From Rhizaria sp. SCN 62-66 (Eukaryota), in the NCBI GenBank assembly GCA_001724265.1, contig MEDY01000131.1:1-64000 (forward strand): a stretch of 64,000 nucleotides of DNA, written 5' to 3'. The translations under genes were made by a program, and so were the position numbers. The first letter of the stretch is position 1. Each line of letters starts with the position of its first letter. The notes below the pieces were generated by a model. That model saw nothing but the letters and a program-made list of their open reading frames with translations. It was not told the DNA's origin and searched no databases. This document shows, in pieces, positions 8,091 through 64,000 of this stretch.

Positions 8091-10540
8091 TCACTGAGCT
8101 AATGGGTTCTTGCTGCGCCGCGACCGAAACGTGTTTGTTGTCCTTGTGCTGGTACTTTTACTAGCAGCGCCGGCACGTGACGTCGACCGCGAGCGTGAGC
8201 GAGACGAAGAACTGGTGCTCGCTATTGCACCTGTGGCGCGCGAGCGAGAGCGCGACACATCAATTTTCTCTGTGCTTTCAGTGTCTGGCACGGTGTTCTT
8301 GGTACTGCGACTGCTTTTGCGTGCAGCGTTCGCATTGGCACTATTATCAGCTTCGCTGGCGATATGATCTGCAGACAACGTAAGATCATTGAGATTCTGC
8401 TCCGGCTGAGACCCACTGACACTGACTTCAGATGTGATGAGCACAGCCTCGCACCAGGCTAGGTAACCAGCGAAACTAGCGCATAGTGGCACTAAAGGGC
8501 AGATAAACACACTCACAACAACAAATGCGATACGATACCACAGATTCATTGTGATATGGCTGTTTGTGGCACATTTGATGACTTGCGGTGAAACCGAGCG
8601 ATCAAGCGTCCCTGCCACGAGTAAAACCGCAAAGATGATCGTTGTAAAAATCAAGTCAAAACCGACTGAGGACTGTGCAGAGGTGCTGTAAAAGGCGTCG
8701 CACACTGCAGCGGCAAACGAAGGCAGCACTGCGGCAACAGCACTGCACACAGCGTCGTGCGCAGTGCCTTCGAACATGCTGGCAGAGCGGTCACAATTTG
8801 CAGTAAAGAGCTCGGGAGTCCAGCCGCGCTGCACCAAGGCATGCGCAAATGTGTTCGTGATGTCGATAGAACTAATGGTAAGACGAGAGCGACGAAGCCC
8901 GCGCGAGAGCGGAACAACAGCAAACGACTTCACTGTAGTCGTGGTATTCGCAACCTTTTCGGAACCAACACCGATGACGGGCTTGACAGGCAAATATTCG
9001 TCAAGTTGGTCAAAGAACAAACCAGCGCAGTCTGCGTCAGTGTGTTCATTCTTGACTCCATTAACAGTCACTGAATGAGTGTGGACGTGCGTACTCGCAG
9101 CAGACTTACGGCCACGACACAACGCAACAAACCTCTTGTTCACGTGACTGTCAACACTCGGGTTAATGTTATACCGAGCGATGTCTGCTGCGGCAGCGCG
9201 CAGAGCAGCGCACTCAGCACGAGAGCGGCAGACAACCTGCCATTGCCACTGCACGTACGACAAATCATTCGAACTACTCTCGCTTGCGCCCGCAGTGCGT
9301 CCTCCAAGAAGAGCACTCAGCTGCTATGAATGCAGGTGTAGCGTTTTCTCTGTAGCGGATTTGGATGAGGAAGACTGCAAGATTGACTGCGACAGTAAAT
9401 AACCCGGCGATTCGAGTGCACGCACCGCGCTAGACCAATGCATCGCAGTTGTCGCAGCGGCGATGATGCATAGCAATGCGCATAACACAATGCTGCCGTG
9501 CGCGGACTTCCGCAAGCTGAACTTCTTCGCAGTGACGCTGCTTTCAGAGTCATAGCAGCCGCTGGAGCTCAGAGGTCGTGCACCGCCAAAGTGTTGCGAA
9601 TACAGCTTAGCAGCAAACGAAGTCAGCGTTGAGATAAACGGCATGAACGGCAGTAGCAGCACGCCGTGTCCTGCAATCAGAACAACGTTAAATGTGGTAC
9701 CGCGCGTCACTGGCATCAATGCGAGACACACCAGTGCAAGCGCAACAGACACGACGAGCAGTACGATATCAACTGTGCTTACCCGCGCCTCAGTTGCCGG
9801 AGTAGTCAATGTCTTACTTTCAACCAAACCGTCAGTCACAGAGTCAAGAGCAGTGTTCTGATTGTGCTCGCAAGATGTCGCAGTGTTGTACGCGTCGACC
9901 AACAGAAACGCTATCGCAAATAGCGGTAAAGCGAACGAGAGAGCGATCATAAAGCCCAACCACACGAGGGCGGGGGCTGCCGACAGCGCACGGCGAGAGG
10001 CTGAAATGCGGAAATACACGCACAAGACAACCGCAAAGCCCATCAACTACAAAGCAAAAGATACACACATGTTGTTAAAAAGTGAGTTATTGCATGCTAT
10101 TAAGGCAGAGTCAAGTATTTGAATAAAATCTTGGAGAAAAACGTTGCGATTAGTACCTGTCCAGTGATATACCACTGCGTGGGGTCGAGACTCGTAAGCT
10201 GATACGCCTCGAAGATCATGCTGTGCGGGCGGTGCCAGCGCGCGCCACGCAGAAACCAGGCGACGACGTTTTTGTCTCCTGTCAGCACCATGTCGTCGAA
10301 CACCATTTGCAGCATGTATCCCCATGTGCAGCAGAGAGCGGTGAGCAGCAGCACTGCGAGTGCGATCAGCGTTTTCACTTGAAGTCCTTCGTGGAAAGCC
10401 TTTGATTGAATTTGAGACGTAGATATAGCAGGCTTAAGAGCTGATGCGGCGTGCACTACAAAATAAAGCATACCGACGATGACGGGGCCCCATACTAGCA
10501 AGGTAAAGGCGTTGTCGGAGACCGAAGTCTCCTCGAACAT
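8091..10540 (-). CDS. polytopic membrane protein of unknown function (~779 aa if the in-frame TAG at 9324-9326 is read as sense)
   Basis: Exons 10540-10157 and 10046-8091; intron 10156-10047 (GTACTA...TTTGTAG) joins WYITGQ|LMGFAVVL in frame. Many hydrophobic segments in all three ORF-track pieces; ORFs 9324..10046 and 8091..9263 share a frame separated by one TAG; stop TGA. Start ATG uncertain. Confidence 0.7.
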
Positions 10541-10964
10541 GCTCTTGGGACAAATGAATGGAGCACAAGACACAACCTCCGTCAGTGATAATATGGAAAA
10601 AAAATTCAGAGTGCTAAGACATATATCTCAATTGTTTCCTTAGTTATATCCTCTGCTAGTGCGATTATAAGACAATGTACAACTTTTCCTACACTGAGAA
10701 CTCAGGTCAAGAGCCGAGAGCTGCCGCCGTAACCGTAAGTAGCAAGCGCACATTAGTGCACAAACAAGGTATATCTACACAAACTCTAGATATAGCAATG
10801 TTCGGTAATTGTATGATCTACATCATGATGCTCGACTCTTATCAGACCTCTTGTGACATATTATTTCAAAGGAACTTATCGCAACAATATGAAACACAAG
10901 ATTCTCATGGAAGACAACTGTATGATGGCACAATCTGAGCTGGAACAAAATCTGAATAAATTAC

Positions 10965-10992
10965 AATGATATCTTACTAATGATATCTTACT
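10965..10992. repeat. perfect 14-bp tandem duplication (AATGATATCTTACT x2)
   Basis: Read directly; lies 3' of the LSD1-like gene stop. Confidence 0.85.
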
Positions 10993-11062
10993 ATAAATCG
11001 ACACATAGCAAAATCATAATCGAACCCCTGCGCTATCCACACGAGCCTCAAGTTGATTTGTT

Positions 11063-22842: not shown

Positions 22843-23109
22843 GCTCGCAACGGTCAGCATAGCAGTGCCTCGTCTGCAGCGCTTGTTCTAGAGCGTATTA
22901 TTTATTCAAATGTTATTATCAATGTGTACTTTAATCTTATTGTCGTATCTCTAACTAATAATTGTTGTTTCTAACAATAAAACAAGGTATTTAAAAGCAA
23001 TATCATCCTTGAGTTTCTTTATATCGCATTTATACCTATTTCAAAATCTAAAGTACGTCGGCTAGCTTAAATAGCCGAGTCTAAGTAGCCGAGTCAGTCT
23101 TTAAACTAC

Positions 23110-33185: not shown

Positions 33186-33215
33186 TATATGTAATATTCC
33201 TATATGTAATATTCC
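33186..33215. repeat. perfect 15-bp tandem duplication (TATATGTAATATTCC x2)
   Basis: Read directly; lies just 3' of the cytochrome b5-domain gene stop. Confidence 0.85.
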
Positions 33216-33224
33216 ATGCAAAGC

Positions 33225-36200
33225 TTACTCTAGTCCGGGAGTGCTCCTGGGCGTGCCATAGAGTGACCGTTGCCCCGCCACAGCTGCTGCCGCGGCCGCC
33301 GTCACTGCGGCCTGCTGCTGCTGAAGCTGATGTTGACGGCGGGCAGGCACGATGATGATTGCTTCCGGGCCGGTCTCATACGTGCTCACAGTCATATCGT
33401 TGTTACTTTGCACGGCAACGCGACTAAAAGCGCCGTGATTATAGTTGTTTGCGCTTCCACTACCGAAGAGCTAATCGCAAATCGACTTGTTCACAGCAGC
33501 ACCAGCGCTCTCGCTCTCATTGGCAGCATTGCCAGCTGCAGTCTCAAGCCCAGGAACCGCATTGCTGTGATCCCCATCATCATCATTGTTGCCGTCATCG
33601 CAGTAGCTGTCGTGACGCTGGGCAGTGGCAGCGGCATCAGTGCCGTGGCCAACGCCCGCGTCGCCCCACGTGTCATCATCAGCGTACAAGGCCGCGATCG
33701 TGATCGCGTCGGCCCCAGTGTCGTCCGCGCTCTCGACATGAATATCACGCTCCTGCTGCTCAACTTGCTGCCGTTGGTGCTGCGCGTCGTGAGCGTGGTG
33801 CGAGGAGTGTGAATGCTGTGGGGCGGTATTGTTCGTCGCGTTGAGCGCGCTGTCGTACACAGTGCACATCGGCGCCGCCGCAGAGTCTGCGAACGCTGAC
33901 TGCGCAAAGATCGAATGCACCGTGTTGATAAAACCAAACAAGCTCTCGCCGCCGTTATGCGCATCATCAGCCGTCGACACAGCCGCAGACTGAGCGTCAG
34001 CCTCAGGGTTTGCCCAGTGACTGCGCACATTGCCGTCGCCATTGCTGCCGTCGCCGTCAGCGTCGGCGTTATTGTCGGTCACAGTAAAGCCAAATGTGAC
34101 CTCACACACACCCTCGTCCTCAACCTCATGCGATTGACTGTGGGCAGTTCCAGGCGCAAAGCCCTGGTTGCCATGAGACTGCGCCTGCGACTGTGCGCGC
34201 GAGAGCGGAACGGGGATGCTGAGCCGCTGGCACAGCCGCGCCAGCGCGCGCCGGCCCGTCGGCGACAGCATCTGGTTGCCGTTGCTCACTCTCGCACTCG
34301 CATCGTTTGTGTTGTTTACATTGGCGTTGTACGCGGGTGTGCGGGCGAAAGCCGGAGTCGTCGCCCTTGAGGCAAATGCCGCAGGGCCAGGCGAGGGGGC
34401 CACGGTCGGCAGCGGCAGCGGCAGCGGTGAACCAAACGGAAGCGGCTGCTGCGTGTGCGCGCTATAAGTGCCACGCGTGGGAGTCTGATGACTGTACGCA
34501 TTTGCATTGCTTTGGCCGTGGCTCTGAGGGCTGCTCGCGCTTGCGCCGCCGCTAGAGTAGTTGAAGATCGACGGAAGCGCGGGTGCCGGTGCAGGCGCGT
34601 ACGTGGGCGCACCGTTTCCGCGAACAGCGGTTGAGCTCGGAGAGACGGCGTCCCCGTTAGGCTTCGACGGCGAAGTGGCCGTCCCCGGTGTGGCGAGCAC
34701 CCGGGAGGCGATGTAAGTGGGCGACCGCGGCGGCTGCGTCTGCCGAGGCGGCGAGCTGAACTGGCCCGCCGAGACGGCACTTATACGCGGTGCCGCACTA
34801 GGGGTAGTTATACTCACTGGGGTACTTACACTCGCAACGCTGGCATTTGCGGTGGGGTTAGTACGGACCGCAACAGGAGAGGAAAAAAGGCCAAACGGCA
34901 CGGGCTTCATGTCAGTGCGCGTTTGCTGCTGTGTCTTCGAGTCGACGTAACACTGCGCCTGGCCCAGCCCCAGTCCCAGTCCCAGGCTCTGACTCTGGCT
35001 GTGGACGTGACCCTGACTGGCAGGGTGACCGTGAGACGCGGCGTGACCGTGGGCGGGGCCCGGTGACTGGAACAGCATGTACGGGTGGTGGCTGAACTCG
35101 GGCGACGCAGACGCGGACGACGCGGACGCTGATGTCGAGGCGACAGCAGCAGCGGGTGTGGACGCAGATGCAAAAGCGGGGCTACTGGGACTGAGATCGC
35201 TCTGCTGTTGCTGATGTTGCTGTTGCTGGTATTGATAAGGACGCTGAGACTGCGGAGTCTGCTGTTGCTGCTGCTGTTGCTGTTGCAACAGAGACAACGG
35301 CGAGCCGGTACCAGGAGCAAACGGGGTAGCATGCATGCCGCTGCTGCTGATACTGCTAATGGAGCTAGCAACGTTCGCATTCGAGCCGCGTTGAGGCGAG
35401 AATGAGACGTTACTACTGATCACAGTCGCCCCATCAACGCTATGTCCGTTACTGTTGTTGTTGTCGCTGCCGCGCACTCGGCGCGCCGGCTGCGGCTGTC
35501 GCACCGACAGCGGCGACCCCCGTTGCAGCCCGTCGCTCACCGCGATTGCACTGGCGCTCGTGGACGCCACTGTAGCTGCAGGACCAGAGAGAGGGCCGGA
35601 TACAGGACCGGAGACTGGCAGTGCGGCGGACACAGAGGCGGGAATGATGGGAAGAGGGATTGTGGAGAGATATCCAAGCACGGGGTGCGCGGAAGGGTTC
35701 TGCGCTGGGTGAGGGGACTGTGGGGTGTAAGTACCCCCGACAACCGTGGCGGACGCATACGCACCCTTAGACGCCGCCGCCGACGACGACAAGGATGCAT
35801 TGATGGGAGTGTTGTTCTTCATGATGGGCCTCGGCGACATGTACGTGAAGCTACTGCGGGGCTTGTACGGAGTATTCGACTCTGCGTTATAAGAGCCCTG
35901 CTGCTGCTGCTGCTGCTGCTGTGCTGTTGCAGAGTTGGCGCCGTGACTCGGCGACCCCACACTCGTGTTGAACGCGCTGACGTCGTGGTGCGCAGTCGAA
36001 ATGCTCGCGTTGGTGGTGGTATTGTTGTTGCTTTTGTTGCTGCGGGAAGTCGCAGCGCTCATCAGTGCGGGTGTCATCCCAGTCGCGCCATGCACAGCAG
36101 CCGCATTGGCAGCATCTGCAGCAGCAGCAAAAGCAGAAGCACTGGCATGAGGCACAGTGACAGAGGCAGTGAACAGTCTACTGGCGCTCGTGTTGAGCCC

Positions 36201-36336
36201 GCGGTCACTGCGCTGCCGCTGCGCACGGTCACGCTCACGGCCACGCTCACGAGCGGCACGGTCCTCGTCGCGTTGGCGCACCATTTCCTGTTCTTGGCGC
36301 AAAACACGCTCATACTTCTGCTCACGGTCACCATCA

Positions 36337-36382
<46 letters not shown>

Positions 36383-38390
36383 GCTGCTCCCTTTGCATCG
36401 CGGCAACGGCGGCAGCGACGGCGGCTGCGGCGGCCTCGGCTGCGGCGGACGCGACCAGCGATTGCAGCTCTCTCTTGGTCACCACAGTCACATCGTCACC
36501 CTGCGAATCGCCGATAGCACTGCCCTGGTCGTCGGTGGCGTCGAGGTCGCTGCTGTCGGTGAACATGGGCTTCGACTGCAGCGCCTGCTGCTTTGCCGCC
36601 GCAGAGCGATCGTGAGCAGGCGTGCGCTGACTGTGCGGACCGGCCTTCGAGTGACTGTGCACAGCATTAACAGCATTTGCAGCATTGGCAGCGGAAGCAG
36701 CATTTGCAGCATGAGCAACAGCGACAGCGGCAGTGGGGCGTGTGGCGACGGGAGGGCGCGTGCCAGCCAGCACAGCGGTGATCTCGAGGGGGGGCAATAT
36801 CGCACTCGCAGTCACGTCTACAGTCTGCGTCTCATCGACGATGCCGACATCGCCGTTGTCATCGTCGTTGTAGCTTATGCCGACAGCACTGCTGAGGGGA
36901 GTGGCGATCGCGTTCGCGCTCTTATACCCACCACCACCAAACAACGCAGCCGAGGACGACGGCTGTGTAGGATTCACCTTGCTGACAGAGCTGTTGACGT
37001 TCACAGTAGGCACACGCTTCGGCGGCAGCGGCGGCGGCACCGTAACGCCAACACCGCGCACAGAGCCAGGAGCATGCTGATACTGAGCGGAAGCAGGCAC
37101 TGCAGCAGACGCGGACGCGGCCTTGCTCAGCGCGTTCGCGAGCGCTGCCGTGACAGGCGTCTGTGACGGCAGCGGCGCGGCAGCCGCGGCGGCGGCGCGC
37201 GCGATGGTGAGGTCGGCCTCGGCGATGCAGCGCTGGACGCTGGCGCAGAGGGAAGACACTTGCGACGCCAGCGGGGAGCCGAACACGCGGCTCGTGCTCG
37301 TAGCAGCGGCGGCGGGCGCGGGGGTCGCGGGGAGAGCAGCGATGTGACTTGCCTTCACAGTGGCAGTGGCAGTGTTAATGTCGGTGTGTGCGCTGCTAGG
37401 GTACGAGGTGTCGCACTGCGGCAGCGGCAGGGCGAACGTACTATCGTCGAGGCCGTCGTTCTCTGCACTCGCGGAAGCAGCAACCACGGCAACAGGGGCA
37501 GTTGCCGTGCTGTTGTTGCTCAGATGCACCGCCGGAGCAGTGCTTGAGAACTTTTGCTGCTGAAGCTGTTCATGTTGGAGCTGTTGAGCGCGCTTTTGCT
37601 GCACGTAGGCCTGGTATTCGCGCGCAGCAATCTCGTCCTCTTCGCTATCTTCATCCTCGTCCTCGTCGCCGTTGTTGTTATTGTTGTTGAAGTTGTTGTT
37701 GTGCGCGTTCGTGTTGTTCGTGTTGTTGTGCGGGTCTTCGTCGTCAAAGTATCCTTCTGTGACCAGAAACGACTCAAAGTCAGCCGCAGCAGCCTCCTCC
37801 GCGTCCCGGCCCCTGTAAGCACTGCCCGCAGCAGTAATCGCGGCGTTAACGTGCGCGTTGGAGCTGGCCGTGCGTGTGCGCGTGCGAGCAGATGCAGGTG
37901 TCGGCGCTGAAAATAACGGCAGCTGCGCCGTGTCATTCAACGCGCTCGCACTCGCACTCACACTCGCACTGCTTGTAGATGCAGGCGCAGCCGCAGCGGC
38001 AGCGGGCGGCGGTGGAGGCGGGCTGTCGCGGATCAGCGTTGCAACAGCGAACTGATCCATCGCAGCGCGCGCGCGCGTCGAGTGGTTCACAGCGGAGAAC
38101 GCACTTGAGGCGTCTTTGCCGGCAAACTCGTGCACGATGTACGCACCGCCAGGGTGCAAAAACGCAAAGACAGAGAGATCATAGACGATGCCATCGATCG
38201 CCACGAGCAGCGGCTGCGCGGCAGCGAGGTCGTCGTTGCCCAAGTCTGCAAGCCAGCTGCGCAGTGTGGCCGGAGGCGGCGGGCTGTCGTGGGCCGCGAA
38301 ATGGGCGTCAGCGAGGCCAGAGATGGCCGAGACGCGGGCGTGCGCGGAGGACTCAGTGAGTTGGTAGCCGCGCAGGGTCGACCACAGCAT
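33225..38390 (-). CDS. cytochrome b5-like heme-binding domain protein with long disordered tail; 1721 aa if two in-frame TAGs (36369-36371, 33471-33473) are sense codons
   Basis: LLVAIDGIVYDLSVFAFLHPGGAYIVHEFAGKDASSAFSAVNHS (HPGG and the second His are present). ORFs 36369..38390, 33471..36302 and 33225..33413 are all in one frame, separated only by TAG codons; TAA at 33225-33227 is followed by an AT-rich spacer. Confidence 0.8.
36339..36386 (-). repeat. polyglutamine trinucleotide tract CAG5-TAG-CAG10
   Basis: The plus strand reads (CTG)10 CTA (CTG)5. Confidence 0.95.
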
Positions 38391-39065: not shown

Positions 39066-42000
39066 TCAAAACTCCTCCGCGGCGGCAGCCTGGTGCTTCG
39101 CGAGCTCAAGCAGCATCGCCTCGTCGAAATAGCTCGCGACGGCCACATCCTCCGACAGCCCCTTGCGGCGGCGCGTCTTCAGCATGAAATCCCTCGCCAG
39201 CGCCTGTGTCGGTGCGACTTCCAGTGGCTTAAGCGCGATGCTCTTGTCCAGCGGGTCCCCGGGCACGACGCCCCAGTGATCGAACGTGCTCTGACAGAAC
39301 GCCATGCCGTGCGTGAGCGTGCGCAGGTCCGTCTCAAACCCGAACGACTCGATCTGCGGCATCGTCGCCTCGGTCACCACCAGCGGCGTGCCGGGCAACG
39401 GCCGAGTGCTCAGCACGCGCCCGCGGCGGTAGCCCAGGATGCGCTGCGCCTCGCCCGCACAGTCGGCCGGCGAGATGATCTGCGTCAACAGCACTGGCTC
39501 CATCAGCCGCGGCGTTGCCAGCAGGAACGTCGAAAATGTCAACCGCTGCATCGTCGGCATCACCTGCGGGCGCGATCGCAGCACGGGCTCTGCGGCGACC
39601 GCGGCGTCGACGAGTTTCACGCGGACGCCGCGCACGGGCTCGCCGCACAGTGGACCCTCACCCATCGCCCACTGGAAGCCGTCGACGAGCGCGTCGCGCA
39701 CGCCGCCGAGCGCTTTCTTGTCGACTTCACTCGGCAAAGTGTCGTCGCAGAGGATGTTCGGCCCGTCGGCGTCGGGGCCAAACGCCCACACGGAGCGCGC
39801 GGCCAGCGTGTCCCACTGGTACTTGTTCTGGAAAAACTCCTGCAGCGCGCGCGCGTTGCCCGGCTCGCCGGGACTACACCGCACCGCACCGAGCTCGATG
39901 TCCTCCGCGAGTCCCTTGTCGAGCGGCTCGGCCACGGCGGCAAACCGGCTCGCGCGGTTGCGCGTCTCGGCAAAGCACTTGACGGCGGAGGACTCGGCCA
40001 CGGACTCTGTGAAGCGGACGCCAGGGTCCGAAACCTTGACCTCGATTTTGGCGTAGTTGTTGCGCAGATCGTGCAGCACGCTCTCCATCTCCAGCTCACC
40101 GCTGGCAAAGATGACGTGCTCGCCCGACTCGAGCGTCTTGGTCTCGACCAGCGGGTAACACTTGCTCACCTTGCGCAGCCCTTCGAGCAGCTTCGGCAGC
40201 TCCGCGGGGACGAGCGGCTCGACAGCGACACGCATGCCCGCAGTCGTCGCGCACTGGAGAGGACGGAAGACGCGGACGTCGGAGCCCGCGGTGTCGAGCG
40301 CGACGACTGTGGCAGTCTTGCCCACGCCCGCGTCGATGCCCTCGACAAGAACCCAGTTGCCTGCGGTTGCACGGTTCACCTCGACGCGGTACCGGCCAGC
40401 CTGAAACAAAAATATCGATATATCCCATATTATAAAAAGAATTAGAAAATTGAAATCAAGATATAATTGTAGATTGCTAAATACAACCGAAAATTCAAAA
40501 TACACACCATTTCTATCTCGAATAAATACATATTTACTCATGTTCGTACCTGGTAGACCCAGAGGCGGCCGACCTCCTGCACGGTCATATCTTCCTCATC
40601 CGCGGGGGAATAACGCGGACCGAGCACGCGCACGCGGTCGCCCACGCGCACCGTGCCGGACATAACGCGGCAGAACGTGTCAAAGCGTGCGCCGTCACCG
40701 CGCGGAAAGGACTTGAGCGCTTGCAGCACTAGCACGGCCTTGGGGTCGCACGCAAGCATTCCCACAGCGGCCGGGGATGTAAGTGCGCCCGTGTAGCCGC
40801 GGCGCACGCGCTCAGCGGCCGCGGCAACGGGCGTGGGAACGCACCGCGTGAGAGCCTCGCACAGTGCGGCGCACGAATCCGAGAAGTACCTCCGCAGCAC
40901 GAGGCGCAGCAGCGGCTTGACATCGAGCTTGAGCTCTGCCTTGGACAGCGCGACGCCCAGCTCACCGCACAGCGCCGCAAGCGCGGGAAGGTCCGCCGCG
41001 AGCGTGTGCGCGTAGATCTTGTACAGCGGTTCGAGCACAAGCTGGATGAACGTGCGCGGCGCCGTCGCCGTCTCGGGCTTGGTGGCGAAACTGCGGTCGC
41101 TGTTCATGTACACGTTGCCCCACAGACGCAGCGCGAGGCGCTCGGGCGGGAACGCCGCCGCGGCGCCGTGCGCAGTGGCGTAGTAGCGCGCGAAGGACTG
41201 TACTGAAAAAACCCAGCCGTGGAGCGCGGAAGCGAAAAGCACGTTGCCCTTCTCCGGGGACAGGCGTTGCGCCACGGGGTCGCCACCGGCGTCGATGACG
41301 GCCGCGTTGACCTCGGCCAGCACGCGCGCAAGCTTGTGGTACGCGTCGGTGGGTGGGAGACGCAGCTCGAGAATGAGCCGGTCGATCTTGGTGATGCAGA
41401 GCACGAGTGGGAGCCCGTCACGCAGAGCCTGCGCGATGACTTTTTCTGTACCCATGACTACGCCCTCGACGGCGTCGACAACGAGAAGCACGCCGTCCGC
41501 GAGCCGCAGCGCCGCGGTGGCCTCGGCGGAGAGATTGACGTGGCCCGGTGCGTCGGCGAGATTCAGCAGGTGCGATTTCCCGCTGAGATCGGGGATTACT
41601 AAGGAAATCGGCGCCGTTTTGAGCGACATCTCGCGCGCCTGCTCATCCGCGCGCGAGTCCGTAAAGCGCGCAGGACGGTCGAGCGGCCAGTCGCGGAAGT
41701 GCGTGTCCTGCACAAGCACGTCGAGCAGCGACGTCTTACCGTGGCCCAAGTGGCCGACAACGGCGACGTTGCGCGTGAAGCGCGGGTGGTCCATGAGCCC
41801 CGTGAGGTACTTGAGGTCGAACGACGTGCGCGGGGGCGCGGAGTCCGCGGCCGCGTCGGCGTAGAGCGAGCGGCCCTTGACCGGGTCGATGATCGGCTTG
41901 TCCAGCGGCTGTGTGTCCTCTTCCTGAACGAGGACTTCGACGTTGGGGTAGACTTCCTCCGCGGAGGCGTAGTACTCCTTGTCCTCAGAGAGCACCACGG

Positions 42001-55000: not shown

Positions 55001-58000
55001 ATGTCTTCTCCAAGCCTGACTCCAAGTCATGCTGCGGCACCGGCAGCACATGTTGTCTCGTCGCCAGACGACGTGAACAGCAAGCTCTTGTCCACCGGGC
55101 CATGTGCGCTTATTGCAACTGCTCCTCTTCAGCGTCCTCATAGTTTGACGCTCCGCGCTTCGTCAACTGGCTCCAACGGCAGCTCCGGCTGCTCAAGCTC
55201 TGGCTCTCATGCCAGCTCTAACCACAACAACAGCTCAAGCACATCAATCTCGGTTACAATCTTGCAGCGCACTAGCCCGCTCATGTGTCCACCAGCGAGC
55301 GCGCCACACACCCTACATCATCCGACAACACGCCTCTTCGCAGCCGTCCCTCCAGCCACCGTCCCAGCCGCTCCCACAGTTCAGGCGTTCTCTTTCCCGA
55401 CGCCAAACAACAGCTCGACCGGCGTGGGCAACAGTTCGTCGTCAACACATGGCAACCACGCGGCGCCTGAGCGTTCCCGCGCTCCTGCCAGGCTCGCGAC
55501 GCCGCTGGACACGGATCTGTGCAGCGACGCTGTTTCTGACTACGGCAACAAAAACCGAGGCGATGATGTTACAGCCATAACTGAAGCCACAACTGCAGAG
55601 CCGACGCTAGCGCGCGAGTCCGTGCTTCTGACAGACACAGCGCATGTACGTGAGGCTGCGCTGCGCGAGCGCGCTGTTCGCGAGGCTGCGCTACTACAGC
55701 AACAGCAACTGCAGTTGCAACAGCGACAGCAGCAAGCTCATGACCAGCCTCAGCCAGCGGCCGCACTGCCGCAAGAGCCGATGTCGCAACAGCTTCTGTC
55801 CGCACAGCAGCAGCAAGACACCGCGGCGTTGCGTGAGGTCGCATTGCTGCAAGAGACAGCACTGTTACGAGAGTCAGAATCGCCGCACACGCGTGATATC
55901 ATCACAGAGCCGGTGTTACTGCGTGAGCCAGTCTTGCCCCACCATGCAACGCAAAACCCTCAAGTGGCAATGACGCAGCCGCATGGGACGGCGCCGCTGC
56001 GGTCGGTTGCAGCGTCGCCAATATACCGCGCGTTTGACGTCCCCAGTCGCGCGAGCTCGCACTCGCACGCGCACTCACGCGTAAACTCGCACGCGCATCC
56101 TCATAGTGCGCATGCTGGTACTCAGCAGCATGTGAACTCTTTGCAGGTGCACAACGCCAACGCTGGCCTGGAGCACAGTCGTCATAAGAACGTCACGCCC
56201 AACAATCTCGGCGGAAGCATCTCGGTTGCCGCGGCGCCGACAGCAGCGCCATGCTCTGTGTGCAAGAAGCCGTCTGTTGCGTCGTCGCTGCCGTTGTCAC
56301 CGCATTACATCTCAACCGCGCCAGGGCTAACTTCGACAACACGTCCTCCCATTTCGCCGCAACTAATGCGTCAGCCGTTGTTGGGAATTAGTTCTCGGTC
56401 GCCTTGCTGTGGCCGTCCTCATTACGTCCACAGCGCGAGCGTAAAGGCGGGCCTCCACGTTAACACAAACGTTAACAGCGACATTGCATCAAACGTCAAC
56501 ACTATGTCAAGTACACACAGCTCAGATGCAACCACCCATGTGTGCGTCAACACAGCCAAAGAGCGGCGTACTGGCACAAGTACCACGGCGATTCCGACCA
56601 CTGAGCGTGGCAGCAGCACTGAGCACTCAACGGTATCAGAGCGCGCAGCTCTGGCGCGCCGCACCAGTAGCGGCGCCAGCTTCAGCAGCGGCAGTATTCG
56701 GTCGCCGGCTGACATATCAGTAGCGCCAGCTTTGGGAACGGCAACGCCGACGACAGGCACACCGTCCGAGATCTCTGCGTTGCGCGTGTTTGTGCCCGTG
56801 TCGACGTCGTTTTCCGGCGCTGGCTTGCTGTCATCTGCGCGGTCACAGCGGTCGCTGGCTTCTACGAAGCCCGAGTCGCCGCTGCTGTTTGTGTCACCGC
56901 ACCAGTCTGAGACACCGGCGACAAGCACTGGTCTTGGTGCTTTGTCACAATCGCCGAGCACGGGGACAGTGGGAGGTGAGAGGCCTGGACAGCTGCGCAC
57001 ACACAGTCTTAACTTTGGCCCTGATCACGACACCATTGAAGAGATCGGTGAAATTGAGGCTATCACCACTGATGACGGTGATGAAGATGATGGTCATATC
57101 AGCGCGTTTCCTTTCACAACGACATCGTCTCCTGCTAAGGCTACCGTCTTTACAGCGGTAGCCACAGATGCGAATGAGACGCGTGCAAGTGCAGCGCATG
57201 AACTTGGTAACGTCGCAAACAAGGCTGAGGCAGCTGCACTGGCGGCGCGCACACATCTTGCAATGACTGTAGCAAGGGAAATTAACACCGCACTTGAGAA
57301 AGAATTGGCGAAGCCGAGTCCGCCTCGAGGCTATTCGCACGGTCACCAAAGCTACACGCACGCACAAACTCACAGTCACCACCTGCATTATGTACACAGT
57401 CAGAATCAGAGTCATGCCAAGGTTCACGGCCACCACGGTCATGGATACAGCCACGGTTATCATGATGGGGTGCATCACAAGGCTGAGCAGGATCATGGGC
57501 AGCATGACAGTGTTTTTGAGAAGGAACGCAGCTTTAGTAGCAACTGCAGCCCTCACAGCCGCCATGGAGACGAGCACGCCCACCATGTTCACCATCACCA
57601 TCGCAGTAGCAGCAAAGACAAAGGCACATCGCCTCAAAGCGAGCATACGCCGCACTCAATAAACTCGCGCGTTGACGTTCATTTGAAGTCAAAATCCGAG
57701 TCCCCGTTACAACCGCAGTCGCACTCAGCGATGCAGTCGCAGGCGCAGTCTCAGCCGCCTGCGGTTACGCTCTTCTTTCCAACCGCCAAATCTCCAGCTG
57801 CTCCAACTGCTCCGCGGCTGCGGCCAAAGCTTGCGCCCCTGCGCATTGCACAGTCGAGTGAAATTATCTTCGCAACCGCGCTGCCGACACCGAGTGCGCG
57901 GGTGCCTTGTGCAGGCTTGCCAACGAGCAAGGGTGGTGGCGCTTTTGCGTTTCCAATCCCCGCTGCCAGCGCAAGCAGCAGCACTGCAAACGCATCAACA

Positions 58001-61000
58001 GTAGCGAACGCATCTCCGGGAGTTAACGCGCAAACAACGACTTCCGCTAGCTTAGCTCTACTGCCGCCAACATCAAGGCGCCCCGCGCCGCTTGCATTGC
58101 CAACTGCACCGGTAGCTGTTGCCGTCCCTATGACGGCCGTCGCGCGCGCAACTCCAGCGCCGCTGCAGCCGCGGCCAACGCCACTTATGACGCCGCAGCA
58201 CCTCCGCATAGGTCCGCCGCATAAGCTGTTAACGCGTGATGCTGTGACTGGGGCGATAACTCCACAAACTAAGTGCAAGACCGGAAAACAGGGTGTGTTT
58301 GCGTTTCCCGATCCCGGCGCTGCTGCAGCGCCGCTGTTGTTAGTGCAAGTGCGTCCGTCGCCGCGGGGTCAGTAGTCGAGTATAGCTGAAGCAAGCAAGC
58401 TGCAGGTTTGTCTTCAACGGCGCGAGACAAAGCGCGGCAGCAACAGCGCAGCTATCGACATCGCAGGTGCGTCAACGACAGCCAGTGCAGCGACGATGTG
58501 TGCGGTAGTGACAGCTCCACTTCGCGGCGACTGCGCGCGTGTTCGGCTTAAAGCAGCTGCAACAGAACGTGCGTTTTTAAGCTCCAAAAACAACGCAAAT
58601 ATTATTGCACGCGCCGCTAAGACTGGTGAATCAGTGCACGCATCGGGGGAAGGCAAATACGACGACGATGTCTGCGCTGTTAACACTTGTCCTGACACAC
58701 CCGTATCGCAAAGCAAGGTAGACATGACTCACATGAAGGGTTTCGGTGCGGCACCCGCATTGTCACCCCGGCTCTGTGCATGCGTTTGCTCGTGTGCTAA
58801 GTCTGCAAAGCACGCGCCGGGCTACGGGCGCGTGCTTCGCGTGGAAACTGCGCGCGCGCTCCTGCACGAGTACGTGTTTGTTTCTTCGTCGCAGAACGTG
58901 ACTGTAAGGCCTGATCAAGGCGACGTTTATTTGCGTCCTCGCAATGCGCTACAGTTAACGCAACGCAAGGAACTATCGTTGGTTGCTGATGTGGCGGCGA
59001 CGTTAGCACAGACTGATGACCTATATCATGCACGTGTTACAAACACTGTCTCATCAGTCGCGATTGAAATTGAAGTTATGGATACCATGCGTGATAAAGG
59101 CTACTTTCCCGAAACTGAGAGCAACGACAGTAGCAGTAACAACGTGGGCAACGGCGCCGAGTTAATAGCGTCATGCACTGTTAAGGGTCGGCAAAGCAGA
59201 AAGTTTGGTTTCGACCCATCGCCACCCACATCTCTGCGTCAAGCCGTCTGCACCCCCGGCGCGGCAATGATCATGGACCGCGGTGTGCAATACGGATTAG
59301 GACACCGCCTTAACAACCCCGCGCGGCGCGGTGGTCGTCGCATCTCACCGTCACACGCTGACCTTGCGCGGCGTTTGCGCGAAGGCCATGGCAAGCTGTA
59401 CGACGATGAAGGCGACATCCCGGAGGAAGATGAGGACGGGATCGACGGCAACGGGGCTGAAGGCGGAATCGAGCTGCTTTCGCTCTCGTTGTCTGGCGAC
59501 GGAGACGTAACTGCAACAGTCAGCGTGACAAGCAGTGGCGTTTCTTACAGCAGCTCGGTCACAGCTTCAGGCACCATAAATGAAACAAGCAGCACGCCGA
59601 TCACTGTGCACAGCGACGACTCATGCAGTGTTAATCCTAGCTGCAGTCGTAGCTCCGAGAGCCGCTGTTGCTCAAGGTCCAAGGGCAGCAAAACCCGGAG
59701 CCCTGATAAGCAAAGCCAAAAGCGCGATCGTGCTCAGCACCGCAAACAGCACGCATGGCCTGCTTTTGGCTCGCCTCCGCCTCACAGCGAGCTAAACATT
59801 AATGACAATGCAGTTGACACCGAAGACCTTGATAGCAGCCATGGCGACTCGCTTGATAATGCTGTTAATGATAATGCGCGCACATCACCGCAGCCTCTTG
59901 GTAACGTTAAAAGCACAAGCGCAAGGTCATCAAACCGCGCAACGCAACGCGGTTACAGTGGCCCTTACGCTCCGCCTCAAGGCCGGGAAGTTGCTCCAAA
60001 GCACTTCTTTGGTCCTGCACTCGACTTATCCACGCTGCGCAGCAAAGGTGCACGCAGTGTCGCTGGTGGTTCTGTTGCTACAAGCAGAAGTGTGTCACTA
60101 GAGCGCAACAAAAGCGACCCAATTAACAACTCGCTCAAGATCAAGAGCAATGCCGACTCAGAACTTGCGACAACAGCGCGCGTTGTCAGCCCGTTTTGTA
60201 CGTTGCAGTCACCGCTTTCAGCGTTTCATTCACGCGCACTACGTGGAACAATCTCGGACACAAGTACTACGACCGCAGCAACGGTTGAAGCAGATCATGG
60301 GGAGAGCACGTCAACGCACGATGGTGAGCGCACTGGCTCACAGAGCGGTCAGCACAAAAACGGCTATAAATCGAGTCGAGGCACTTACGATCGTTCGATC
60401 TCTGTTGCTGGGGACACTAGTGTTGCCGGCAGCGTGACTGGGGCCGGACACTATGAGAGTGCTAGTTCCATCGACAACGGCCCCGGTGGCAGCAACTACA
60501 AAGGCAGCCGCACAGAAAGTATTTGTCAAGGTACTGCATCGCGGATTACAGCTAGCTCCAAGTCTGTTCGTCCTCTTCGTTCAGCTCTCGCGGCCACATG
60601 GACTGTGGCACGCGTCAACGACGGCTGCATGGATATGCTTACTGTTGCGCCCGCTAGCGCTGCGCTCACTCCAGCGTGTCTTCCGTTTCACATTCACTCA
60701 TTACCACACACCGCCAACGTTGATAGAGCGGTCATTGGTGAAGCGTCACAACAGACACCGCTGTTGCAATGCGCAACTCTTCAGCAGCGACCACTGTTGG
60801 CGGCATCATTGCGCCGCGGCGAACCGTGGGTTATGGAAGACACGTTTCTCGCGCGGCCCACTCTGGGACCAACGCAACCGGATGAGGCTGTGCTCGTAAT
60901 TTGTGACGGCCACGGCGAGTGGGGCCGTGCTGTTGCTGAAGTTGCCGGGATGGAACTTGTGGCACATGCTGCTGTGGAAGTTGCAATTCCTACGTTTATG

Positions 61001-64000
61001 GGATCACCAGCGCATAGCGTCTCTGCAATTAAGAGTGCGCGATTGCAGTCACCTGATCCTATAAAACAATCATTGTCCAGCAAGCATTTGAGTACATCTC
61101 AGCCTTTTAAACGCCCACCGCATTTGCGCAAGGTTACTGCAAAGAGTGTTGGTGCCAAGAAAGCGTTTTTTCCGACTACTCAAAGTGCAACACACATTAG
61201 AGAAGCAACAATGTCAATGCTTCCATTAGATGTGCACCGTGAGTCGCCTATTGCTGAAACAGCAATTGCTGTTGTCCCGCCAATCACGGTAATTGCATCC
61301 GCACCAGCACAAGAACATACGGCACACAGTGCAATGAACGCGGCCAATACAGCAGCAACGGCTATTGCTGCGGCTACAGCTGCAGTAGCGTCATCGTACA
61401 ACGTTGTTGTTGCGTCCGCGCACGCAGCTGCTGCTGCACGGATTGCGACAATTGCTGCTGCAGCTGCGGAAGCTGGGAATGAAACACCACTAACTGTTGT
61501 TGACCTTGGCAGTGACTTTGCGGGCGATTCCAACACAGGTCTTCAGAGTGAAATGTTGCCATCAGCACTGACTGACCGCAAATCCTTCCGCCATTACGCT
61601 GCGTTGCAGCAGCGTTCATTGCCGCCTGCCTTAGCACAAAGTGACGGCGACTCAGTCCACAGCTGTGACCGTGACATCAGCTCCGGTGATGAAGAGGACG
61701 CTGACGCACAAGACAACGGCAACAGCAGCAGCGTGTCTGACAGTGCTCTTGGTGTTGCTGTTGTAGAGCCTAGCCCGACGTCAGTCGTTACAACGCACGA
61801 TCTGCGTGTGCGCGCAGAGCAAAGTCGGCTAAATGTCAATCTGGATTCTTGTAACAATGACGATGGCGCTAACAGCACTGAAGAAGAAGCAGATATTAGC
61901 GGTCATGTCTTACCTCGTTCCGCGTCTTGGGAGTTTACTGGATATGAAACCGCGCCACTTTGGCACAAATTGAGCACGCCGCCACCTATGCTGTTTCAGC
62001 AACCTGCTCCGACTGCTGGTCACATTCCGGTGGCCGTAGTGACGGTGCATCGGTTACGCGATGTGCCCACAGTACCCACCGCATGCGCCGCGCTTCAAGA
62101 CGCGTGGATTCCCGCGCCGCGTGTTCATGAGAATAATGCAGTTGCACTCAACACTACAACAAGCCCAGCTACATTTTCAGGTGATCAAGACTTAGGATTC
62201 GCAACGCAACTTGAAGAAAACAACAGCGGCGAATGTGACAGTGGCCCCGCAACCGCGACACTCGCGAGTTCCGCATCTGTTCGAGAAAGCTCGTTGCCGA
62301 AATCGAATGATAGCAAAGATGGTTGTGTTGCGCGGACGACACAGTCACTCACGGTACAGCCTGCTTCATTGCAAAGCGACAGAACTGAACAGTCGACCGC
62401 TGGAGGTAGTAGTTCAGCTGGGCAGATTCGCGGCAAAACACGCTCCGATACTGGCACGCGTCCTATAATTGCAGCGCCACGCTACACCAGTGTTACAGAA
62501 GAGTCAGCAGTGACACGCAATAGTGCCACTGAGAGTGATGGCACTGCAAGCAGTGACGTGGCCTTTACTCGTGCGCGGAGCCAGAGTAGCAGTCTTACAA
62601 AGAGCACATTTGCACCGCCGCAGTTGTTTGTCGCAAAATCTAATGGTGGTGACAGCAAGAGCAGTCGAAGTCGTAGCGCAATCGAGTCAGCGTTAAACAC
62701 GACAGTCGGCACACAACATCAGAGCTGGCTTACAATCCATCCTGCGCAGTCTCCGGCGCGCGCAAGCCTCACCGTCCCGCGGTCGCCGTCGCTGACAACG
62801 ATGGAGTCCGCGCTGTCTGCCTCAAGCGTACCCAACCCTACTATCGGTGCGCTTACTGTAACAGAAACTGGCGCGCAAGAAAGCCTCGGTCTGTGGGGAC
62901 AGGTGCAAGCTGACTTGGAGTCCTGCGGCCGGAGTGCTGTGATTAAAGCATGCAAGGCGACGCCATACTACGGTGCACCGACTGCTCTTGCGATTTTAGC
63001 AAATAAGTTGCCTCTGAACACTACCATAGCTTCTCGGCGCAAGCATACCTCCCAGCAGCCCGCTGCCTCTACTGCGGGACTGTCTCCGGTTGTTTCTGGT
63101 GCAGTTGACTATGCGCAGTCAGATACATCGCGGCTTACTAGTGCAACAGAGCTCGGTGGACACACCGTTATCGTGCCCGTACACGAGTCTCCTGCACTTT
63201 TGGCAGACCGCTGGGCTGCGGACGCCGCAATGCATGCCGTCCTTACAGGGGCATTTGCGCAAGCGCAAGCGCGTTGTATTGGGGTTTTGTCCAAGTCAGA
63301 GTATAACTACCACTATCCGGCGGTCGTTGCTCGGGCTCCCGATGGCACTACGGTCGCAGGCAAGCTGTCACAGCGTGCAACAACGGACACTAAGACAGTG
63401 GTTAAAGGCGGTGCGGCAGCGCTTGTCGTGCGCGTCAGTGGTCGCCTGCGCCGTGTGTGGGCGGCGAGCACTGGCGACTGCAAGGCCATTTTGTTTCATA
63501 TGCCGCAAATAATTTCAAAGTTCGCCAACGGCGGCTATGGCGCTTCAAGTAACATTAAAGTGGCCACTGCGCCGAGCATTGTCCCTGGAGTAACTCACGA
63601 TGACTTAGCCCTTGAGCCTAGCCTTGTCTCTAACTCTGCAAAGACAGCCGCGCACGCGCGCCTACAAGCGTCTCCCCGCGGGCCGCCACCAGCGCAGACG
63701 CCGCGCGTTGTCACAACGCCATCTGCTCGCGGTGGCAACGCAGCCTTCTCGTTTGCTGCCCGCCCGCCCCTCTCTCCTGCACACGTGTCACCACGGTTTC
63801 GTGGTAGTGCAACAGGAGCTGCACAGCCAGTGGCGTGCACAGCAACAACTTGCTGTTTAACAGCTTGCACAGGTCTCTCCCCGGCGTGCGTCACCGTTCG
63901 CGCCACAGTTACAGCGACACCGCTCACGCTTGAGCACCATCCGCAGCGCGCAGACGAGGCCGCGCGCTTGCTCGCAACGCAAGTGCCCGTGTTACCAGTG
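55001..64000 (+). CDS. giant PP2C/PPM-family phosphatase (at least 3000 codons, partial at right edge) with one in-frame TAG at 58373-58375
   Basis: After the TAG the same frame appears open to 64000 (no stop-terminated ORF in that frame in the track; translated stretches checked by hand). PP2C motifs in order: RRGEPWVMEDTF (~60812), VICDGHG (~60896), GGAAALVVRV (~63407), WAASTGDCKAIL (~63458), LTLEHHPQRADEAARL (~63923). Confidence 0.82.

What the first reader, a model, noticed from the sequence alone, without database searches (positions are those of the whole stretch)
8091..64000. Probable non-canonical nuclear genetic code: UAG = Gln, with UAA and UGA still stops
Seen: four in-frame TAG codons (9324-9326, 33471-33473 and 36369-36371 on minus; 58373-58375 on plus) interrupt three unrelated genes, and each frame continues for roughly 80 to 1875 more codons with unchanged coding-like composition. 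No in-frame TAA or TGA interrupts any gene model. Three of the four TAGs touch a CAG codon (TCA TAG CAG; CAG5 TAG CAG10; GGT CAG TAG). The eight complete genes without an internal TAG end in TAA (7) or TGA (1), never TAG. Known: eukaryotic stop reassignments usually couple UAA and UAG; UAG-only reassignment is rare (the fornicate Iotanema spirale UAG=Gln, rhizarian exLh UAG=Leu, some phyllopharyngean ciliates); UAG=Gln with UAA/UGA stops corresponds to NCBI translation table 15. Inference: this GC-rich, intron-containing protist uses UAG as a rare Gln codon, implying a tRNA-Gln(CUA) and an eRF1 that discriminates against UAG; it may be an independent, undescribed origin. The sample is small and none of the four sites lies in a conserved domain.
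Basis: partly seen in the sequence, partly recalled or inferred. Interest (0 to 1): 0.95.

Follow-up and report, generated by a model that had tools for sequence, protein, structure and literature searches.

The report
In-frame TAG codons, probably read as glutamine
An uncultured, GC-rich wastewater protist carries four TAG "stop" codons inside three genes that clearly keep coding afterwards, so it most likely reads TAG as an amino acid (probably glutamine) while still stopping at TAA and TGA, a rare kind of genetic-code change that still needs genome-wide proof.

Summary
All four TAGs are at the stated coordinates. Gene-caller ORFs ending exactly at each TAG occur on 3-5 contigs from other assemblies, and one variant has (CAG)4-TAG instead of (CAG)5-TAG. 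Two independent metagenome assemblies carry TAG 33471 unchanged.

After each TAG the sequence stays coding-like in the same frame, for 410, 965, 81 and more than 1874 codons. After true TAA/TGA ends, GC and codon scores collapse. No intron-like span covers any TAG. For gene B, the only distant homolog is one polypeptide collinear with both sides of the TAG. The shared motifs lie before the next ATG.

Clear gene ends are 10 TAA, 2 TGA and 0 TAG (Fisher p = 5.5e-4). A partial gene ends TAG-TGA and is ambiguous; counting it as a TAG stop gives p = 2.1e-3. Glutamine is favoured only by context: one TAG sits inside a CAG run, and 3 of 4 touch a Gln codon.

Not testable here: tRNA(CUA), eRF1, genome-wide statistics, peptides. 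No genome is held and no tRNA lies in the window.

Verdict: probable UAG sense codon, likely Gln (confidence about 0.62). It would be a new lineage of a known code type. The organism's lineage is unresolved.

The parts
8091..10046 (-). Gene B: multi-pass membrane protein of no Pfam family. It reads as 651 aa through one TAG and ends in TGA at 8091-8093.
   Evidence: ORFs. Pfam gave no family. The distant homolog P0003 is collinear with both halves.
9324..9326 (-). In-frame TAG no. 1 (residue 241 of gene B), context TCA TAG CAG.
   Evidence: The 239-aa ORF P0002 ends exactly here on 5 contigs from JGI/IMG, Logan, ENA and MetaClust. The next ATG is at residue 424, after the conserved motifs at 266-283 and 379-385.
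33225..38390 (-). Gene G: N-terminal cytochrome b5 domain plus a long low-complexity tail. It reads as 1721 aa through two TAGs and ends in TAA at 33225-33227.
   Evidence: Pfam Cyt-b5 E = 7e-13. Frame-0 codon score is -3.76, -3.91 and -4.02 per codon in its three parts. GC falls to 0.23-0.30 only after the TAA.
36369..36371 (-). In-frame TAG no. 2, inside a CAG run: (CAG)5 TAG (CAG)10.
   Evidence: The 673-aa ORF P0126 ends here on 4 contigs. The variant P0127 (672 aa, a different ENA contig of 68,415 bp) is identical apart from one fewer terminal Q. None of the contig pieces listed bridges the site.
33471..33473 (-). In-frame TAG no. 3, 81 codons before the TAA of gene G, context GAT TAG CTC. 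This is the weakest of the four sites.
   Evidence: It is unchanged in X2 record 1 (33001-35254, 1 other letter, at 33908) and X4 record 9 (33273-35085, 0 other letters). The tail scores -4.02 per codon in frame 0 with GC 0.60. An 81-codon open frame alone has P = 0.07.
55001..64000 (+). Gene K: very long low-complexity protein (at least 2999 aa in the window), of no Pfam family. It runs off the window end.
   Evidence: Frame 0 is favoured on both sides of the TAG, by 0.153 per codon over 1124 codons and 0.207 per codon over 1874 codons.
58373..58375 (+). In-frame TAG no. 4, context GGT CAG TAG TCG.
   Evidence: The 1124-aa ORF P0129 ends here on 3 contigs. There is no GC dip (0.50-0.58 after it). 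No ATG, GTG or TTG occurs for 40 codons after it.
398..403 (+). TAG TGA at the end of a partial gene (2-400). It is either a TAG stop or Gln followed by a TGA stop.
40401..40549 (-). Control intron in EFTUD2 (GTACGA...TTTCAG, 149 nt, GC 0.25). It shows what introns look like in this organism.
   Evidence: Similar introns lie at 17168-17335 (LSD1-like gene, GC 0.33) and 48519-48657 (gene I/J, GC 0.36).

Best explanation
The contig comes from the nucleus of an uncultured, GC-rich, intron-containing microbial eukaryote found in bioreactor and wastewater metagenomes. In this organism UAG is decoded as an amino acid, most likely glutamine, and is a rare codon: 4 TAG against 646 CAG/CAA in the codons counted. 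UAA (preferred) and UGA still terminate translation.

Shown: the TAGs are real DNA, they lie inside sequence that is coding in the same frame on both sides, and clear gene ends avoid TAG.

Inferred: a tRNA with anticodon CUA (or very efficient near-cognate decoding by tRNA-Gln) out-competes an eRF1 that has lost or weakened UAG recognition. In a genome under strong GC pressure TAG became rare and could change meaning. C-to-T changes in CAG codons would then be synonymous, which fits the TAG inside the CAG run.
For: 1. The TAGs are real and reproducible.
- ORFs ending exactly at each TAG occur on 5, 4, 3 and 3 contigs from different assembly collections.
- A second contig has (CAG)4-TAG instead of (CAG)5-TAG.
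- TAG 33471 is unchanged in contigs from two runs of different studies and years.

2. The sequence downstream is coding in the same frame.
- Frame-0 codon log-likelihood is -3.91 to -4.20 per codon for all post-TAG segments. It is -4.64 to -5.37 for the 240 nt after 11 true stops.
- GC over the 240 nt after each TAG is 0.55-0.62, against 0.32-0.49 after 11 true stops.
- Stop-free lengths have P = 5e-8, 2e-12 and 2e-32 for three sites.

3. A homolog spans one site.
- The only non-self hit for gene B among 1.84 billion representatives is P0003 (435 aa). It aligns collinearly with residues 33-135 (E = 6e-11), 266-283 and 443-533 (E = 5e-12). The TAG is residue 241.
- The next ATG is at residue 424.

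4. The TAGs are not in introns. 0 of 323, 187, 457 and 516 GT..AG spans over the four TAGs has GC below 0.44, whereas real introns have GC 0.25-0.36 and a GTAYG 5' end.

5. TAG is used internally and TAA/TGA terminally. Internal interruptions are 4 TAG and 0 other. Clear termini are 0 TAG, 10 TAA and 2 TGA. Fisher p = 5.5e-4, or 2.1e-3 if the ambiguous first gene counts as a TAG stop.

6. Context favours Gln.
- One TAG lies within (CAG)5_(CAG)10.
- 3 of 4 TAGs are flanked by a Gln codon: P(at least 3 of 4) = 0.099 if TAG behaves like Gln, and at most 0.0045 for any other residue.
- The +4 base pattern fits the context of Gln codons (P = 0.15) better than that of generic codons (P = 0.019).

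7. There is precedent. The same pattern (UAG sense, UAA the main stop, UGA a minor stop) is documented for Iotanema spirale (PMC5304391, section 7).
Against: - There are only four codons, in three fast-evolving, low-complexity, weakly biased genes. B and K have the lowest GC3 in the window.
- No TAG occurs in 11,299 codons of the 12 better-conserved segments.
- No TAG falls in a column alignable to a conserved residue. P0003 has a gap at the site.
- A partial gene ends TAG-TGA.
- Under random nonsense mutation 4 of 4 TAG has P = 0.11-0.14.
- The Gln-neighbour signal would also arise if the TAGs were simply CAG-to-TAG nonsense mutations.
- No tRNA is in the window, and no genome is held, so tRNA(CUA) and eRF1 are untested.
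- No listed RNA contig covers a TAG, so retention in mRNA is not shown.
- Site 33471 is weak by ORF length: two true stops are followed by open frames of 67 and 116 codons.
- TAG is far rarer here than in Iotanema, where 204 occur in 126 genes. That could mean a leaky stop rather than a settled sense codon.
Confidence: 0.62

Rival explanations
1. Leaky or ambiguous UAG. UAG is still recognised as a stop in some contexts, but it is read through efficiently by near-cognate tRNA-Gln or a weak suppressor at these four sites. This would be an intermediate or context-dependent code rather than a completed reassignment.
For: TAG is very rare (4 in 16,667 codons) and confined to disordered regions of weakly biased genes. 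The partial first gene ends TAG immediately followed by TGA. All four TAGs are followed by a pyrimidine, three of them by C, whereas 9 of 12 true stops are followed by a purine (Fisher p = 0.019). From recalled knowledge rather than a call, C at +4 is the leakiest termination context in eukaryotes.
Against: The +4 bias is explained by ordinary Gln-codon context (P = 0.15). 0 of 4 sites matches the CARYYA readthrough motif. 0 of 12 clear gene ends uses TAG. Two readthrough sites in one gene and four in 14 genes would be far above what standard-code organisms show (recalled, not tested).
Confidence: 0.15
2. Standard code. The four TAGs are fixed nonsense mutations, and the three genes are recently truncated or on their way to becoming pseudogenes.
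For: TAG is the expected product of 58-62% of one-step nonsense mutations in these genes, so 4 of 4 has P = 0.11-0.14. The CAG-run TAG is one transition from CAG. The affected genes are weakly biased and poorly conserved.
Against: It needs four independent nonsense mutations in 3 of about 14 genes, with no frameshift, TAA or TGA in the 3,330 codons downstream of the TAGs. Downstream codon usage is intact. The TAGs are the same in assemblies from different studies and years. In gene B the most conserved part of the family lies after the TAG. TAG is absent from the 12 clear termini.
Confidence: 0.1
3. Gene-model artefact. The TAGs are true stops, and what follows is a separate gene in the same frame or a GC-rich 3' UTR.
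For: Site 33471 is followed by only 81 open codons (P = 0.07). Two true stops are followed by 67 and 116 open codons. The shortest intergenic spacer seen is roughly 130-170 nt, between I/J and the FHA gene. In this GC-rich DNA many spurious frames are bridged by TAG.
Against: The homolog P0003 is a single protein across site 9324, and there is no ATG for 183 codons after it. The CAG run continues on both sides of TAG 36369. No AT-rich spacer follows any TAG, whereas GC falls to 0.32-0.49 in the 240 nt after each of 11 profiled true stops. The same frame is favoured on both sides of every TAG.
Confidence: 0.05
4. The TAGs are removed or changed at the RNA level, either by unusual GC-rich introns or by U-to-C editing.
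For: TCATAG|CAG at 9324 resembles a 3' splice site. No listed RNA contig covers any TAG, so this is not directly excluded.
Against: The six introns mapped here are 138-182 nt, GC 0.25-0.36, with GTAYG...YAG ends. The lowest-GC GT..AG span over any TAG is 0.44. The best one at 9324 (80 nt) would break the frame that P0003 supports on both sides. The CAG-run site has no splice-like option with GC below 0.58.
Confidence: 0.03
5. Sequencing or assembly error in a single metagenome contig.
For: The source is a metagenome assembly. The CAG-run site lies in a repeat where Logan contigs break.
Against: Identical ORF ends occur on 3-5 contigs from several collections for every site. A length variant of the CAG run still ends at the stop. 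X2 and X4 contigs carry TAG 33471.
Confidence: 0.02

Closest known systems
Iotanema spirale (Metamonada: Fornicata) nuclear code: UAG = Gln, UAA and UGA stops (PMC5304391; abstract and section 7 read)
   Same: In-frame UAG only. UAA is the dominant terminator and UGA a minor one (104 UAA, 15 UGA, 0 UAG there; 10 TAA, 2 TGA, 0 clear TAG here). Gln is the inferred meaning. The organism is not a ciliate.
   Different: Iotanema has 204 in-frame UAG in 126 genes, many at hyperconserved Gln columns. Here there are 4 in about 14 genes, none at a conserved column. The genome here is GC-rich with long low-complexity proteins. The EFTUD2 tree contained no named metamonad, so relatedness is untested. The organism comes from wastewater and bioreactors, not a gecko gut.
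Hartmannula sinica and Trochilia petrani (phyllopharyngean ciliates): UAG = Gln, UAA the preferred stop (PMC11687900; abstract only)
   Same: UAG alone is reassigned, putatively to Gln, with UAA fixed as the preferred stop.
   Different: Those are ciliates. From recalled knowledge rather than a call, ciliate macronuclear genomes are typically AT-rich, with tiny introns and short chromosomes. This is a contig of at least 64 kb (72 kb) at 54-71% GC, with 138-182 nt introns. According to that abstract, UAG has widespread usage there.
Rhizarian exLh and TARA phyllopharyngeans: UAG = Leu (PMC5304391 abstract; PMC11687900 abstract)
   Same: UAG is decoupled from UAA, and UAA and UGA remain stops.
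   Different: The meaning there is Leu. Here the context favours Gln about 40-fold over Leu (0.099 against 0.0023), on only 4 sites.
Programmed UAG readthrough of the TMV type (UAG-CARYYA) in standard-code organisms (recalled knowledge, no call)
   Same: UAG is decoded by a Gln or other near-cognate tRNA, so the protein continues past the stop.
   Different: 0 of 4 sites matches CARYYA. Readthrough extensions are usually short C-terminal add-ons, not 410-1874 codons holding the conserved part of the protein.

Membership tests
UAG = Gln nuclear code with UAA/UGA stops (Iotanema type, 'table 15'-like) | In-frame UAG inside genuine coding sequence that continues in the same frame | tested here: met
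   Four sites. A single-polypeptide homolog spans site 9324.
UAG = Gln nuclear code with UAA/UGA stops (Iotanema type, 'table 15'-like) | UAG aligns to conserved Gln in homologs | tested here: inconclusive
   Only one homolog could be found (P0003), and it has a 35-column gap at the TAG. Gene G gave no hits. The support is contextual only: the CAG run, and 3 of 4 sites next to a Gln codon.
UAG = Gln nuclear code with UAA/UGA stops (Iotanema type, 'table 15'-like) | UAG is not used as a terminator | tested here: inconclusive
   0 of 12 clear gene ends use TAG (10 TAA, 2 TGA). One partial gene ends TAG-TGA. The sample is small: with a 20% TAG share, my own arithmetic (no call) gives P(0 of 12) of about 0.07.
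UAG = Gln nuclear code with UAA/UGA stops (Iotanema type, 'table 15'-like) | UAA and UGA remain stops | tested here: met
   0 in-frame TAA or TGA in 16,667 codons. Coding signal collapses after 11 of 11 profiled TAA/TGA ends.
UAG = Gln nuclear code with UAA/UGA stops (Iotanema type, 'table 15'-like) | A tRNA with anticodon CUA and Gln identity | not testable with these tools
   ARAGORN found 0 tRNA genes in the window. No genome is held.
UAG = Gln nuclear code with UAA/UGA stops (Iotanema type, 'table 15'-like) | eRF1 N-domain changes that reduce UAG recognition | not testable with these tools
   eRF1 is not in the window. No other contig of the organism could be reached.
Programmed stop-codon readthrough (TMV-type context) | UAG followed by CARYYA | tested here: not met
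   0 of 4 sites match.
Spliceosomal intron containing the TAG | An AT-rich GTAYG...YAG span of about 140-180 nt that keeps the frame | tested here: not met
   The lowest GC of any GT..AG span over a TAG is 0.44, against 0.25-0.36 for real introns. GTAYG spans exist only at 33471, and they have GC 0.56.

The most novel reading that the evidence does not exclude
A previously unsampled, deep-branching eukaryote lineage known only from wastewater and bioreactor metagenomes has independently turned UAG into a glutamine codon, and it has been caught at an early stage. Strong GC pressure removed TAG from gene ends (TAA 10, TGA 2, TAG 0). TAG is now re-entering genes as a rare synonymous C-to-T variant of CAG, first in Gln runs and in weakly biased genes. 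This would be a natural nuclear example of codon capture in progress.
Probability: 0.3. Interest if true: 0.85.

Novelty: new member of a known kind. Interest (0 to 1): 0.62.

Why it matters
Nuclear codes in which UAG changes meaning while UAA stays a stop were long thought not to occur. They are now known from a handful of lineages: Iotanema, a rhizarian, and some phyllopharyngean ciliates (PMC5304391, PMC11687900).

Another case, in a GC-rich non-ciliate, would matter in three ways:
- It would add an independent origin.
- It would show that such changes can be found in environmental eukaryote contigs.
- Because TAG is still very rare here, it could show what the first steps of a stop-to-sense change look like: which genes and contexts accept the codon first, and how eRF1 and a suppressor tRNA share the codon.

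There is also a practical point. Gene callers using the standard code split this organism's genes at TAG. The database holds the pieces as separate proteins.

Tried and rejected
- **Whole genome:** none is held.
- **tRNA and Rfam scans of the window:** 0 hits each.
- **The search for related loci with EFTUD2 exon 1:**
  - Metagenome contigs gave only loci at 29-41% identity, none a close relative.
  - Genome contigs gave only bacterial GTPases at 36-43%.
  - Viral contigs gave nothing.
  - As a result, the contigs of the relative with 70% identity (P0007) and of P0003 could not be fetched, and no orthologous DNA could be compared.
- **The search for homologous proteins:**
  - Gene B returned only its own piece.
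  - The whole of gene G returned nothing at E <= 0.001, because low complexity filled the candidate list.
- **Read laying:**
  - All four runs were Logan contigs, not raw reads.
  - None of the contig pieces listed bridges the CAG-run TAG. The contigs stop at 36326 and restart at 36399.
  - None of the RNA pieces listed covers either TAG of gene G.
  - The poly(A) RNA contig at 35141-35628 lies between the two TAGs, but the tool warns that DNA can be present in such libraries.
  - Sites 9324 and 58373 lay outside the 20-kb limit of the single call.
  - Too few strain differences were seen to test for synonymous versus non-synonymous change. X2 showed one difference in gene G, at 33908.
- **Taxonomy:**
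  - The Atlas look-up gave only broad 'Eukaryota' rows.
  - The cluster look-ups gave no organism names.
  - The EFTUD2 tree used 37 of the 120 hits listed. It separates the organism from opisthokonts and green plants but cannot name its group.
- **Rejected as evidence:**
  - 'All four are TAG'.
  - The +4 pyrimidine bias, which ordinary Gln-codon context explains.
  - By-eye guesses that gene K has a PP2C domain and gene A a DnaJ end. Pfam found no family in either.
- **Paper supplements:** not consulted. The Iotanema codon tables are in supplements and may refine the usage comparison.

Full report
**What the window is.**
The 64-kb window is 54-71% GC. It carries about 14 genes on both strands, with long open frames and a few short introns.
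- Pfam identifies Snf7, a SWIRM/amine-oxidase (LSD1-like) giant, a CAP-Gly/RCC1 protein, EFTUD2/Snu114, an FHA protein, a PIP5K, an NnrU-like protein and a cytochrome-b5 protein.
- Introns are unmistakable: GTAYG...YAG, 138-182 nt, 25-36% GC, set in exons of 60-70% GC.
- Intergenic DNA is also AT-rich.
- The DNA is held by bioreactor, wastewater and activated-sludge metagenome runs from several studies between 2015 and 2025.

**Observation.**
- Read with TAG as sense, the frames continue for 410 codons (gene B), 965 and 81 codons (gene G) and at least 1874 codons (gene K).
- In 16,667 codons from 15 trimmed coding segments there are 4 TAG, 0 TAA and 0 TGA in frame. Gene D, PIP5K, the partial first gene and small exons were not counted.

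**Are the TAGs real DNA?**
Yes.
- Prokaryote-style gene calls stored in the public protein collection end exactly at each TAG:
  - the 239-aa piece of gene B, on 5 contigs from four collections;
  - the 673-aa first piece of gene G, on 4 contigs;
  - the 943-aa middle piece of gene G, on 3 contigs;
  - the 1124-aa first piece of gene K, on 3 contigs.
- A 672-aa variant from a different 68-kb contig is identical to the 673-aa piece apart from one fewer terminal Gln. So a second assembly has (CAG)4 followed by the stop, where the window has (CAG)5 TAG.
- Laid contigs of two runs from different studies carry TAG 33471 unchanged: X2 record 1 with one difference elsewhere, and X4 record 9 with none.
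- None of the contig pieces listed in that call bridges the CAG-run site.

**Is the sequence after each TAG translated in the same frame?**
Several independent lines say it is coding.
1. *Composition.* In the 240 nt after 11 true TAA/TGA ends, GC is 0.32-0.49, and 9 of 11 meet another in-frame stop within 12 codons. After the four TAGs, GC is 0.55-0.62. The real end of gene D, at 22840, was found later and not profiled.
2. *Codon usage.*
   - The model was trained on 11,299 codons from 12 TAG-free segments.
   - All post-TAG segments score best in frame 0, at -3.91 to -4.20 per codon. Regions after true stops score -4.64 to -5.37.
3. *Chance.* Stop-free frames of these lengths have P = 5e-8, 2e-12 and 2e-32. 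The 81-codon tail after TAG 33471 has only P = 0.07. That site rests mainly on composition, and on GC falling only after the TAA at 33225.
4. *Homology.*
   - A full phmmer scan of 1.84 billion representatives with gene B found its own two pieces and one distant relative, P0003 (435 aa).
   - P0003 is a single protein collinear with gene B on both sides of the TAG. Residues 33-135, 200-218, 266-283, 379-385 and 443-533 align; the TAG is residue 241.
   - The next ATG in gene B is at residue 424, beyond two of the shared motifs. An independent downstream gene could therefore not encode them.
5. *Start codons.* No ATG, GTG or TTG occurs for 40 codons after the TAG in gene K. The CAG run simply continues across the TAG in gene G.

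**Introns.**
Among 323, 187, 457 and 516 GT..AG spans of 30-400 nt covering the four TAGs, none has GC below 0.44. GTAYG starts occur only at 33471, and those spans have GC 0.56. The 80-nt option at 9324 would break the frame that the homolog supports.

**Stops.**
- The 12 gene ends within the window use TAA 10 times and TGA twice, and never TAG. Against the four internal TAGs this gives Fisher p = 5.5e-4.
- The partial gene at the window start ends TAG TGA, which both codes can explain. Counting it as a TAG stop gives p = 2.1e-3.

**Which amino acid?**
The evidence is contextual only.
- One TAG sits inside (CAG)5_(CAG)10.
- 3 of 4 TAGs are flanked by a Gln codon. Gln codons have a Gln neighbour 32% of the time, and other residues 2-11%. 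So P(at least 3 of 4) is 0.099 for Gln and at most 0.0045 for any other residue.
- The base following the TAGs fits the context of Gln codons (P = 0.15) better than that of generic codons (P = 0.019).
- Both signals would also arise if the TAGs were CAG-to-TAG nonsense mutations. They identify the ancestor codon, not the translation.

**What weakens the case.**
- There are four codons, all in low-complexity regions of the least codon-biased genes, and none in 11,299 codons of the better-conserved genes. If TAG tracks the AT-richer Gln codon CAA, that concentration is not unusual (P = 0.07).
- 'All four are TAG' is expected 11-14% of the time from random nonsense mutation.
- None of the RNA pieces listed covers a TAG.
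- tRNA(CUA), eRF1 and genome-wide statistics could not be reached.
- TAG is far rarer here than in Iotanema (PMC5304391, section 7), so an ambiguous or leaky UAG remains possible.

**Rivals.**
- Fixed nonsense mutations would need four hits in 3 of about 14 genes, with no other lesion in 3,330 downstream codons, and would have to be stable across samples.
- Separate genes or UTRs are contradicted by the homolog, the CAG run and the missing AT-rich spacers.
- Introns and assembly error fail the tests above.
- I put the sense-codon reading at about 0.62, and a leaky or ambiguous UAG at 0.15. The remaining rivals together come to about 0.2.

**Who is it?**
- Exon 1 of EFTUD2 has one relative at 70% identity (P0007, unnamed, JGI). 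The next hits are at 52% or less, and named hits are at 41-50% across fungi, Fonticula, choanoflagellates, animals and green algae.
- In a quick ML tree of 37 of the 120 listed hits, the window plus that relative form a long branch. It groups with unnamed environmental sequences, outside the opisthokont and green-plant clades (SH-aLRT 87-100).
- The tree contained no named amoebozoan, excavate, rhizarian or alveolate, so the lineage is unresolved.

**Comparison and verdict.**
- The pattern (UAG sense, UAA the main stop, UGA a minor stop) is that of Iotanema spirale and of two phyllopharyngean ciliates (PMC5304391, abstract and section 7; PMC11687900, abstract only).
- The genome style here is unlike a ciliate's, and there is no evidence linking it to fornicates.
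- If confirmed, it is a new member of a known kind of code variant, probably of independent origin, and possibly at an early stage.

Noticed in passing
window 398-403 (+): The partial gene at the window start ends ...GCC TAG TGA. It is the only place where TAG could be acting as a terminator. Under TAG = Gln it is simply Gln followed by a TGA stop.
   Followed up: partly
window 10047-10049 (-) and 54974-54976 (+): In-frame TAGs sit 1 and 8 codons upstream of the presumed start codons of genes B and K, in lower-GC leader sequence. With TAG as sense, an upstream ATG in frame (7 codons before TAG 10047) would extend gene B by about 9 residues.
   Followed up: partly
window 40146-40269: A poly(A) RNA contig of run X5 differs from the window at 17 listed positions in EFTUD2, all spaced by multiples of 3. 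This looks like a related species or strain with synonymous third-position changes in the same sludge.
   Followed up: no
P0007 and P0003 (no window coordinates): A relative exists in JGI/IMG metagenomes. Its EFTUD2 is 70% identical and called as one 966-aa ORF on a 24-kb contig. The gene B homolog (37% identity overall in the global alignment, 40-42% in the local matches) lies on a 6.6-kb contig. Whether the two come from one organism, and whether that organism shares the TAG usage, is unknown.
   Followed up: partly
whole window; introns at 17168-17335, 40401-40549, 48519-48657, 24492-24629: There is an extreme compositional contrast between exons (60-70% GC) and introns or spacers (23-40% GC). 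The 5' splice site is uniformly GTAYG, and most introns end in TAG.
   Followed up: yes
genes B (8091-10046), K (55001-64000), G (33225-38390): The TAG-bearing genes are among the least codon-biased. GC3 is 0.53-0.60 in B, 0.50-0.58 in K and 0.67-0.70 in G, against 0.71-0.85 in most others; gene A is 0.65. They also hold 84 of the 161 CAA codons.
   Followed up: partly
window 11063-20788 (-): A giant SWIRM/amine-oxidase (LSD1-like) gene of about 3,200 codons is split by one intron. Its catalytic domain is interrupted and followed by very long Ala-, Ser-, Asn- and Gln-rich low-complexity stretches. Such runs pervade nearly every protein in the window.
   Followed up: no
terminal stops listed: 9 of 12 true stops are followed by a purine at +4, while all four in-frame TAGs are followed by a pyrimidine (Fisher p = 0.019). 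The usual context of Gln codons explains the TAG side.
   Followed up: yes
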